Source: Escherichia phage radambza. Taken from it: a stretch of 64,000 nucleotides of DNA. The stretch is taken from the sequence record MN850639.1. One strand, 5' to 3'. A model generated the notes under the pieces. That model worked only from the letters and a program-made list of their open reading frames with translations. It was not told the DNA's origin and did not search any database. Below, piece by piece: positions 41,515 through 41,654 of this stretch; the first letter of the stretch is position 1; each line of letters begins with the position of its first letter. The position numbers and the translations under genes are program-made.

Positions 41515-41654
41515 TTATCTTTGTAGATAAGCTACCCAGACTTGCTTAAGGTCTGTAGCGATGTGCCTTTTTGGGTTTAAATCTAGAATTTACCCTTTCA
41601 CCCTTTGTGGTCGCATACTCACAGGTAAGCTTAATAACTTATCTACAAAGATAA
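41515..41654 (-). other. candidate structured RNA: 17 bp perfect inverted repeat enclosing about 106 nt
   Basis: TTATCTTTGTAGATAAG (41515-41531) is the exact reverse complement of CTTATCTACAAAGATAA (41638-41654); no tRNA and no credible ORF inside. Confidence 0.35.

What the first reader, a model, noticed from the sequence alone, without database searches (positions are those of the whole stretch)
41515..41654. 17 bp perfect inverted repeat enclosing about 106 nt within the tRNA cluster
TTATCTTTGTAGATAAG and its exact reverse complement flank a 106 nt segment with no tRNA and no credible ORF (the overlapping plus-strand track ORF is antisense to tRNA genes). On the minus-strand transcript this would form a long clamp, typical of RNase III substrates or of the closing stem of structured ncRNAs. 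A tRNA-like acceptor/T-arm element follows at 41706-41733 without D or anticodon arms.
Basis: seen in the sequence. Interest (0 to 1): 0.5.

Follow-up and report, generated by a model that had tools for sequence, protein, structure and literature searches.

The report
Closing stem of a phage RNA
The inverted repeat is real: it is the conserved closing stem of an unannotated ~150-nt RNA just before the tRNA-Lys gene of Felix O1-like phages, inside a cluster of Y-RNA-like genes next to a disguised Ro60-type RNA-binding protein gene.

Summary
The repeat is confirmed and is not chance: 19 nt are perfect, against at most 15 in shuffles. On the minus (tRNA) strand it forms a 24-bp helix (P1).

P1 closes a ~146-nt module that ends 4 nt before tRNA-Lys(UUU). 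Seven lineages with unrelated arm sequences all keep a 22-26 bp clamp. All keep an inner hairpin (P4) with loop CYUWWGCAA(G) and a GAGUAUGC-like motif. G·U pairs and model scores place the structure on the transcribed strand. No ORF, no Rfam family and no E. coli homolog fits it.

The context is new. The adjacent "tRNA-like" piece is a complete YrlA-type tRNA mimic with V, T, closed acceptor and D arms. Three further stem-UUACAGCAA...stem-CUGG hairpins lie between the tRNAs. The DUF2828/DUF7788 gene heading the cluster folds as Ro60. Such hairpins follow that gene, on its strand, in most distant phage loci examined.

Best reading: an end-clamped non-coding RNA cut from the tRNA operon by RNase P, probably a partner of the Ro60-like protein. 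RNase III cleavage of the clamp is plausible but untested. Its description of the tRNA-like piece was incomplete.

The parts
41633..41656 (-). P1 clamp, 5' strand of the RNA (AAUUAUCUUUGUAGAUAAGUUAUU)
   Evidence: 24 bp, 98% of cells paired in 21 sequences. Four pairs show two-sided compensatory change and one base pair is deleted on both sides together.
41513..41536 (-). P1 clamp, 3' strand of the RNA (GGUAGCUUAUCUACAAAGAUAAUU); a 4-nt linker UAAU follows, then tRNA-Lys
   Evidence: The invariant G·U pairs would be C·A on the other strand.
41509..41658 (-). Whole clamp module M3, about 146 nt plus linkers: P1, a variable 5' branch, P3 and P4
   Evidence: Model R2 scores 145 bits on this strand and 29 on the opposite strand. 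Homologs lie directly 5' of tRNA-Lys(UUU) in seven lineages.
41537..41555 (-). P4 hairpin CAGAC-CUUAAGCAA-GUCUG, abutting the 3' strand of P1
   Evidence: The loop CYUWWGCAA(G) is kept in all seven lineages on stems of different sequence. AAGCAA is enriched in the Y-like modules of distant phages.
41573..41595 (-). P3 hairpin GGGU-AAAUUCUAGAUUUAA-ACCC displaying AUUCUAGAUU (palindromic UCUAGA)
   Evidence: The apex is invariant in types A and B on covarying stems. Lineage C has ACUAGU. It is not conserved in lineages D-F.
41613..41620 (-). Conserved motif GAGUAUGC in the 5' half of the module
   Evidence: The variants are GAGUAUGC (A, C), GAGU-GCC (B), GAGUAGGC (D), GGGUAUGC (E) and GGGUAGGC (F), read from the sequences printed.
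41433..41508 (-). tRNA-Lys(UUU); its 5' end is the predicted RNase P site that would create the 3' end of the clamp RNA
   Evidence: The clamp ends 0-12 nt before tRNA-Lys(UUU) in all seven lineages.
41656..41788 (-). M2: YrlA-like tRNA mimic. Closing stem AGACCGUU/AACGGUCU, V arm, T arm 41717-41733, closed acceptor hairpin 41699-41716, D arm 41682-41696.
   Evidence: 99% of cells paired, and the AS stem has three pairs with two-sided change. Model R1 finds full-length homologs next to the Ro60-like gene in distant phages. The architecture is as described in PMC4201824.
41800..41876 (-). M1: Y-like hairpin module (AGACCAA-AUACAGCAAG...UUGGUCU-GG)
42652..42718 (-). Y-like hairpin module between tRNA-Met and tRNA-Asn
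   Evidence: R1 gives 42.4 bits; sequence and fold.
42811..42885 (-). Y-like hairpin module between tRNA-Glu and tRNA-Met
   Evidence: R1 gives 33.4 bits; sequence and fold.
43220..44635 (-). Ro60-like protein gene (471 aa; Pfam DUF2828 + DUF7788; PHROG 850 'RNA-binding protein') at the head of the tRNA/ncRNA cluster
   Evidence: The AlphaFold2 model has pLDDT 85.6 and pTM 0.85. The top 12 Foldseek PDB hits are all Ro60/Rsr/phage Ro60, with E from 6.5e-8 to 4.7e-6 and TM up to 0.66.

Best explanation
The inverted repeat is P1, the 24-bp closing helix of a ~146-nt structured non-coding RNA, the 'clamp module'. The module is transcribed on the minus strand as part of the phage's tRNA/ncRNA operon.

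Shown: the helix is kept at 22-26 bp by compensatory change in seven lineages. It always ends 0-12 nt before tRNA-Lys(UUU). It encloses a multi-helix junction whose universal parts are the P4 hairpin (loop CYUWWGCAA(G), abutting the 3' strand of P1, so coaxial stacking on it is possible) and a GAGUAUGC-like motif.

Inferred: RNase P cleavage at the tRNA-Lys 5' end creates the RNA's 3' end. The clamp then ties both ends together, which shields the RNA from 3' exonucleases and organises the junction. The P4 loop carries the same (A)AGCAA signature as the neighbouring Y-RNA-like hairpins, so the module is probably a ligand or adaptor of the phage's Ro60-like protein (DUF2828/DUF7788) encoded at the head of the operon. 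A perfect duplex two helical turns long may also be cut by host RNase III to free the module from its flanks. What the RNP does downstream is unknown.
For: Repeat above chance.

P1 covariation within Ounavirinae: 98% of cells paired against 25-49% in slid controls, four two-sided changes and one co-deleted pair. Types A and B fold independently into the same architecture.

Four more divergent lineages have unrelated arms, the same clamp length and the same position. Across all seven lineages the MFE z-scores run from -3.4 to -6.5.

RNA level and strand: G·U pairs. The transcribed strand is more stable than its complement in 23 of 24 variants. Model R2 gives 145-169 bits against 22-28 on the other strand.

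Not coding.

Discrete unit: the M2 sequence is identical in the window and L004 while the clamp module is swapped from type A to type B. In L137-L139 a tRNA-Ala separates M2 from the clamp, and L136 has the clamp without M2.

Ro60 link: the protein fold. In 47 distant loci, 47 Y-like modules lie on the gene's strand and 6 on the opposite strand, with 14 in the first 0.5 kb downstream. AAGCAA occurs inside 29 of 79 modules against 3 expected. The P4 loop contains AAGCAA or UAGCAA in six of the seven lineages (AUGCAA in L139).
Against: No expression data exist, so a discrete RNA species and its ends are only predicted.

The clamp module is not detectable next to the Ro60-like gene in 74 more distant phages. 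Its tie to the protein therefore rests on co-location and a 5-6 nt loop motif.

It lacks the published Ro60-binding motif (GNCGAAN0-1G). The P4 stem does not track the closing helices of the Y modules.

The covariation comes from few independent lineages (about seven), and the four most divergent were aligned by structure.

Two other long hairpins in this window share the AUCUUU...AAAGAU base and also sit 5' of tRNAs. The helix might therefore be mainly a processing signal.
Confidence: 0.5

Rival explanations
1. The helix is only a processing stalk. The clamp is an RNase III site, like the stems flanking 16S and 23S rRNA, that separates operon segments. The enclosed sequence has no function of its own.
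For: The clamp is 22-26 bp in all seven lineages, the size that established knowledge of E. coli RNase III gives for a good substrate. Two other long hairpins in the window with the same AUCUUU...AAAGAU base sit directly 5' of tRNA-Arg and tRNA-Leu. Similar hairpins precede tRNA-Pro and tRNA-Leu in relatives.
Against: The interior is not free to drift. The P4 loop and the GAGUAUGC-like motif are kept in seven lineages, P4 covaries at 4 of 5 positions, and P3 covaries between types A and B. Module length is kept at 145-170 nt. RNase III cleavage itself is untested.
Confidence: 0.2
2. The module is a 5' leader element dedicated to tRNA-Lys(UUU). It controls maturation, folding or quality control of that tRNA, for example by modulating RNase P access. 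It is not a free-standing RNA.
For: The module directly precedes tRNA-Lys(UUU), with a 0-12 nt gap, in seven lineages even though the neighbouring tRNA order differs.
Against: Adjacency may simply reflect conserved synteny. P4 does not mimic or track the tRNA-Lys anticodon stem. Similar clamps precede other tRNAs. Nothing in the sequence pairs with the tRNA body.
Confidence: 0.15
3. The repeat is a DNA-level feature: terminal inverted repeats of a miniature mobile element, or a cruciform or protein-binding palindrome.
For: The arms are perfect over 19 nt and the element is about 140 bp. The module is exchanged as a cassette between otherwise near-identical genomes.
Against: It is usually present once per genome (274 places in 251 records) and is found next to tRNA-Lys in every locus examined; the window holds no second copy. 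It is absent from 5,426 E. coli genomes. The flanks GGUA and UAAU are not a target-site duplication. The conserved G·U pairs become C·A on the other strand, and the model score and stability are strand-asymmetric.
Confidence: 0.03

Closest known systems
Bacterial and phage Y RNAs bound by Ro60: YrlA/YrlB of Salmonella and Mycobacterium (Chen et al. 2014, PMC4201824) and Yrl1/Yrl2 of Thermus phage phiLo (PMC12135203)
   Same: They are encoded within a few kb of a Ro60-fold protein gene on the same strand. Their 5' and 3' ends pair in a long stem that encloses an effector region. Several different RNAs occur per locus. The neighbouring module M2 has the V-T-AS-D tRNA-mimic layout of YrlA.
   Different: The protein is DUF2828/DUF7788, with no TROVE match at E up to 0.01; only the fold matches. 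The GNCGAAN0-1G / CGAA motif is absent and UUACAGCAA / AAGCAA takes its place. The clamp module has no tRNA-like domain, is longer (146-170 nt) and carries its signature in an internal hairpin loop rather than in the terminal stem. The RNAs are interleaved with a tRNA operon.
RNase III processing stalks that flank 16S and 23S rRNA in bacterial rRNA operons, and RNase III sites in phage polycistronic transcripts (own background knowledge)
   Same: A long, near-perfect duplex forms between sequences flanking a structured RNA inside a polycistronic precursor that also holds tRNAs. The length is about two helical turns.
   Different: Cleavage has not been shown here. The helix abuts a conserved hairpin, which suggests that at least part of it belongs to the mature RNA.
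3'-end formation by RNase P at a downstream tRNA or tRNA-like structure: MALAT1-mascRNA and the mitochondrial 'tRNA punctuation' model (own background knowledge)
   Same: The upstream RNA would get its 3' end from RNase P cutting at the 5' end of the next tRNA, and a terminal structure would then protect that end.
   Different: Here the protection would be a simple long duplex rather than a triple helix. The downstream element is a genuine tRNA. None of this has been tested.
Stable non-tRNA RNAs in the phage T4 tRNA cluster, species 1 and 2 (recalled from memory; no paper retrieved)
   Same: They are ~120-140 nt stable RNAs of unknown function, co-transcribed and co-processed with phage tRNAs.
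   Different: No sequence or structure comparison was made, and as far as I recall T4 has no Ro60-like gene. This is a lead, not a test.

Membership tests
Y RNA (Ro60-associated ncRNA): clamp module M3 | Encoded close to (within about 4 kb) and on the same strand as a Ro60 ortholog | tested here: met
   The module lies 1.56 kb downstream of 43220-44635 on the same strand. That protein's model matches Ro60 structures over its full length. The criterion is taken from PMC4201824.
Y RNA (Ro60-associated ncRNA): clamp module M3 | 5' and 3' ends pair in a long stem that encloses a large loop or effector region | tested here: met
   P1 is 24 bp and covaries. It is conserved at 22-26 bp in seven lineages.
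Y RNA (Ro60-associated ncRNA): clamp module M3 | Ro60-binding motif in the stem (GGUCCGA bulged helix, or GNCGAAN0-1G / CGAA) | tested here: not met
   No such motif is present in the sequences. The only shared signature is (A)AGCAA in the P4 loop.
Y RNA (Ro60-associated ncRNA): clamp module M3 | Physical association with the Ro60 protein | not testable with these tools
   This needs RIP/CLIP or EMSA.
YrlA-type tRNA mimic: neighbouring module M2 (41656-41788) | V, T, AS (closed acceptor) and D stem-loops in that order, with tRNA-invariant nucleotides, inside a closing stem | tested here: met
   The T loop is UUCGAUU and the D loop AAUGGUA, preceded by U8. The AS stem covaries through three sequence versions and the V arm through two. 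Model R1 recovers the same layout in distant phages.
YrlA-type tRNA mimic: neighbouring module M2 (41656-41788) | GNCGAAN0-1G motif near the 5' end | tested here: not met
   The 5' strand reads CAGAAGACCGUUUACAGCAA. UUACAGCAA is the conserved element in this family.
E. coli RNase III substrate | About 20 bp or more of essentially uninterrupted double-stranded RNA | tested here: met
   The clamp has 24 contiguous pairs in the window and 22-26 in the other lineages.
E. coli RNase III substrate | Site-specific cleavage by RNase III, and absence of antideterminant base pairs | not tested
   No cleavage data are available and the antideterminant rules were not applied.
Miniature inverted-repeat transposable element | Multiple dispersed copies flanked by target-site duplications | tested here: not met
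   It occurs at one locus per genome, has no E. coli copies, and the flanks GGUA and UAAU are not a duplication.
Any Rfam 15 family | A covariance-model match | tested here: not met
   Scanning 41480-41960 at E up to 10 returned only a partial tRNA T-arm hit and noise. Nothing was found on the Y-like modules in the scan of 37000-44000.

The most novel reading that the evidence does not exclude
The clamp RNA is a new class of Ro60-partner RNA dedicated to the phage's own tRNA-Lys(UUU). Under this reading, the RNP formed with the DUF2828-type Ro60 would monitor, protect or help repair that tRNA, or act as a decoy against host nucleases that target tRNA-Lys anticodons. It would make the module part of a phage counter-defence system. 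The evidence that allows this reading is the invariant adjacency to tRNA-Lys(UUU) in seven lineages, the cassette-like allelic exchange of the module, and the operon shared with a Ro60-like protein and tRNA mimics.
Probability: 0.1. Interest if true: 0.85.

Novelty: new variant of a known kind. Interest (0 to 1): 0.62.

Why it matters
Ro60-Y RNA particles are known from animals, some bacteria and a few phages, but what they do in bacteria and phages is still unclear.

This locus points to a large, unrecognised branch. A search that scored only 8,000 candidates found more than 2,800 DUF2828/DUF7788 proteins at E up to 1e-5. The window's protein has the Ro60 fold, and in most distant loci examined the gene is followed by hairpin RNAs with a UUACAGCAA signature; some loci also have tRNA mimics. 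The gene is often wired to a phage tRNA operon.

The system occurs in Felix O1-like phages of E. coli and Salmonella, which are easy to manipulate. Binding, processing and phenotype are therefore directly testable.

The clamp RNA adds a further structured, lineage-specific, cassette-exchanged component of unknown role, tied to tRNA-Lys(UUU).

More modestly, it corrects annotations. The 131-nt 'tRNA-Thr' in phages REP5-REP7 is a tRNA mimic, and several 'hypothetical protein' calls over this region are probably spurious.

Tried and rejected
- **Permuted tRNA or two-piece tmRNA gene:** the T-arm and 3' acceptor strand precede the 5' acceptor strand and D-arm, but the acceptor is closed by a 4-8 nt loop. 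There is no G3:U70, no encoded CCA and no conserved tag frame, and ARAGORN calls nothing. The YrlA layout explains it.
- **tRNA with an intron:** this is how REP5 annotates it (131-nt tRNA-Thr GGT). There is no matching 5' acceptor strand upstream.
- **Presence/absence polymorphism of the repeat:** BLAST hits starting at query position 113-135 turned out to reflect replacement by a diverged allele of the same length.
- **Environmental IMG/VR hits to ATTCTAGATT...CTACARACC:** these are unrelated coding sequence.
- **Clamp module next to distant Ro60-like genes:** not found.
- **P4 as a mimic of the tRNA-Lys anticodon arm:** the stems are the same in lineages A-C but do not track in D-F.
- **P4 stem equal to the Y-module closing helix:** it does not track.
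- **Promoter in the clamp's 3' arm (GATAAT):** there is no -35 and the scan calls nothing.
- **Intrinsic terminator:** no U tract follows, and a tRNA comes next.
- **Insertion within the gap in VpaE1 and EC6:** the 'two-piece' match is a second hit to repeated Y-module sequence.
- **Sequence-level PDB search for the protein:** uninformative.
- **Literature searches for DUF2828, or for Felix O1 with Ro60/Y RNA:** nothing relevant was found. A jumbo-phage survey only mentions ROT/TROVE proteins with a tRNA-like partner.
- **MAFFT alignment of all seven lineages:** it did not keep P1 and P4 in register. The model-based alignment was contaminated by reverse-strand rows. Cross-lineage covariation is therefore reported from per-lineage folds.

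Full report
**Observation.** The window is a Felix O1-like phage (Ounavirinae): the region is 95-99% identical to about 190 Escherichia, Salmonella and Shigella phage records. Twenty-four tRNAs lie on the minus strand between 37767 and 43054. The reported repeat sits in the 428-nt gap between tRNA-Asp (41937) and tRNA-Lys(UUU) (41508). TTATCTTTGTAGATAAG at 41515-41531 and its exact complement at 41638-41654 are present. The match is perfect over 19 nt and 95% over 22 nt. In 30 shuffles of the window, the longest perfect inverted repeat with a comparable loop was 11-15 nt.

**The helix is a conserved RNA structure on the tRNA strand.** Some relatives aligned only from query position ~113-135 onward. 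Reading their sequence showed that the segment is not missing. It is replaced by a diverged allele of the same length with its own matching arms.
- Twenty-one non-redundant Ounavirinae sequences fall into three versions: A, B1 and B2.
- On their alignment the 24-bp helix is 98% paired, against 25-49% when the partner strand is slid.
- Four pairs change on both sides (U-A/C-G, C-G/U-A, C-G/G-C, G-C/U-G). One A-U pair is absent on both sides together.
- Invariant G·U pairs would be C·A on the other strand. The transcribed strand folds more stably than its complement in 23 of 24 variants.
- The covariance model scores 145-169 bits on the transcribed strand against 22-28 on the opposite strand.
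- Types A and B, folded separately, give the same architecture. It consists of P1, a variable 5' branch, a hairpin presenting AUUCUAGAUU (P3) and a 3' hairpin (P4).
- No ORF survives across variants. No Rfam family matches. There is no homolog in 5,426 E. coli genomes.

**More independent lineages.** I fetched syntenic genomes whose upstream protein is 53-63% identical to the window's. The clamp model, or folding, finds the module directly 5' of tRNA-Lys(UUU) in all four: L136 at 60.9 bits, L138 (Yersinia phage P778) at 28.8, L137 at 18.4 and L139 at 19.9.
- The seven lineages have unrelated arm sequences. Each has a 22-26 bp outer helix, with MFE z-scores from -3.4 to -6.5.
- The helix ends 0-12 nt before the tRNA in every lineage.
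- The universal interior features are P4 and a GAGUAUGC-like motif. P4 has loop CYUWWGCAA(G) on the stems CAGAC, CAGACC, CAAACC, CAGUC, CUGUUC, AAAGUC and AGAGAC, each paired with its complement.
- Caveat: these are about seven lineages, and the four most divergent were compared through their own folds rather than a register-true alignment.

**The module is a discrete unit.** The neighbouring module M2 is identical in the window and in L004, while the clamp module is swapped from type A to type B. In L137-L139 a tRNA-Ala lies between M2 and the clamp. L136 has the clamp but no tRNA-like M2.

**Context: a Y-RNA-like cluster and a Ro60-like protein.** Reading the RNA from 5' to 3', it has a closing stem (AGACCGUU/AACGGUCU), a V arm and a T arm. 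These are followed by a 7-bp acceptor stem closed by a tetraloop, then U8 and a D arm.
- This is the layout Chen et al. 2014 describe for YrlA.
- The structure is 99% paired in 15 sequences. The AS stem occurs in three fully compensated versions.
- The gene at the head of the cluster (43220-44635) matches Pfam DUF2828 and DUF7788 only. Its AlphaFold2 model (pLDDT 85.6) matches Ro60 over its full length.
- The top 12 Foldseek hits are Xenopus Ro60, Deinococcus Rsr and Thermus phage Ro60.
- In 74 loci of distant phages carrying this gene (39-48% identity), the M2 model finds full-length tRNA mimics and ~65-nt hairpins. The hairpins have the form A-stem-UUACAGCAA-(A-rich)-stem-CUGG, all on the gene's strand.
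- A simple pattern search finds 47 such modules on the gene's strand against 6 on the opposite strand in 47 loci. Fourteen of them lie in the first 0.5 kb downstream of the gene.
- The gene also neighbours a same-strand tRNA cluster in 27 of 43 loci scanned, and a tmRNA in five.
- This window has four such modules: 42811-42885, 42652-42718, 41800-41876 and M2.
- The library held no paper linking DUF2828 or Felix O1-like phages to Ro60 or Y RNAs. Published phage cases involve canonical TROVE proteins.

**How the clamp module relates to that system.** It sits in the same operon, 1.56 kb from the gene and immediately after M2. AAGCAA is strongly enriched inside the Y-like modules of distant phages: 29 of 79 modules against 3 expected, with a maximum of 10 in 200 shuffles. 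The P4 loop presents AAGCAA or UAGCAA in six of the seven lineages, and AUGCAA in L139.
- The whole module was not found near the gene in the 74 distant loci.
- It lacks the published Ro60-binding motif.
- Its P4 stem tracks neither the Y-module closing helices nor the tRNA-Lys anticodon stem.

The link to the protein is therefore an inference of moderate strength.

**Mechanism proposed.**
- Shown: a conserved, end-clamping RNA helix. It encloses conserved elements, lies immediately upstream of tRNA-Lys(UUU) and sits in an operon with Y-like RNAs and a Ro60-fold protein.
- Inferred: transcription starts from the TTGACA-type promoter-like sites upstream of tRNA-Pro (their number is not above shuffle expectation).
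- Inferred: the 3' end is made by RNase P at the tRNA-Lys 5' end.
- Inferred: the clamp protects the ends and organises the junction.
- Inferred: the Ro60-like protein binds through the AGCAA loop.
- RNase III cleavage of the clamp is plausible from its constant length of about two helical turns, and from two other hairpins with the same AUCUUU...AAAGAU base 5' of tRNA-Arg and tRNA-Leu. It is untested.

**Verdict.** It leads to an unannotated phage Ro60/Y-RNA-like system, of which the clamp RNA is a lineage-specific component with unknown function.

Noticed in passing
window 41656-41788 (-): A YrlA-type tRNA mimic (V, T, closed 7-bp acceptor, D arms) lies immediately 5' of the clamp. Phages REP5-REP7 annotate it as a 131-nt 'tRNA-Thr GGT'. 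By analogy with M. smegmatis YrlA, the 7-bp acceptor stem could make it an RNase P / CCA-adding substrate.
   Followed up: yes
window 42811-42885, 42652-42718, 41800-41876 (-): Three short Y-like hairpin modules (stem-UUACAGCAA...stem-CUGG) are interleaved with the tRNAs. They share a 5' flank of the form RCA.A.G. No Rfam family covers them.
   Followed up: yes
window 43220-44635 (-); loci L062-L139: The DUF2828/DUF7788 protein has the Ro60 (TROVE + vWA) fold. The family is very large in phages. Its gene usually sits next to a same-strand tRNA cluster and, in some marine-type contigs, near a tmRNA gene.
   Followed up: partly
window 41027-41070 and 40360-40455 (-): Two further long hairpins, of 16 bp and about 26 bp, share the clamp's AUCUUU...AAAGAU(A/U)AUU base. 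They sit directly 5' of tRNA-Arg and tRNA-Leu. The second encloses a ~45-nt branched insert and drew a spurious MIR473 Rfam hit.
   Followed up: partly
window 40948-41026 (-): A tRNA found by Rfam (31.7 bits) but missed by ARAGORN. Relatives annotate tRNA-Arg(TCT) at this position.
   Followed up: partly
window ~40725-40804 (-): A tRNA-like element with a 10-bp terminal stem, a T-arm-like GGGGUUCAACUCCUC and a 3' GCCA. It gives a weak tRNA-Sec Rfam hit (23 bits). ARAGORN does not call it.
   Followed up: no
window 42017-42538 (-): An HNH homing-endonuclease ORF lies between tRNA-Tyr and tRNA-Asp. It is present in some relatives and absent in others. The listed 173-aa ORF runs into tRNA-Tyr, so the true start is probably further downstream (relatives annotate 142 aa).
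   Followed up: no
window 41027-41274 (-): This 248-nt spacer between tRNA-Ile and tRNA-Arg holds the best sigma-70-like site of the region (TTGACA-17-TATAGT, 41259->41231). It also has weak tmRNA-type Rfam hits below threshold.
   Followed up: no
window 41573-41595 (-): The P3 apex carries a palindromic UCUAGA (ACUAGU in lineage C). It could allow loop-loop dimerisation of the RNA. This is speculation only.
   Followed up: no
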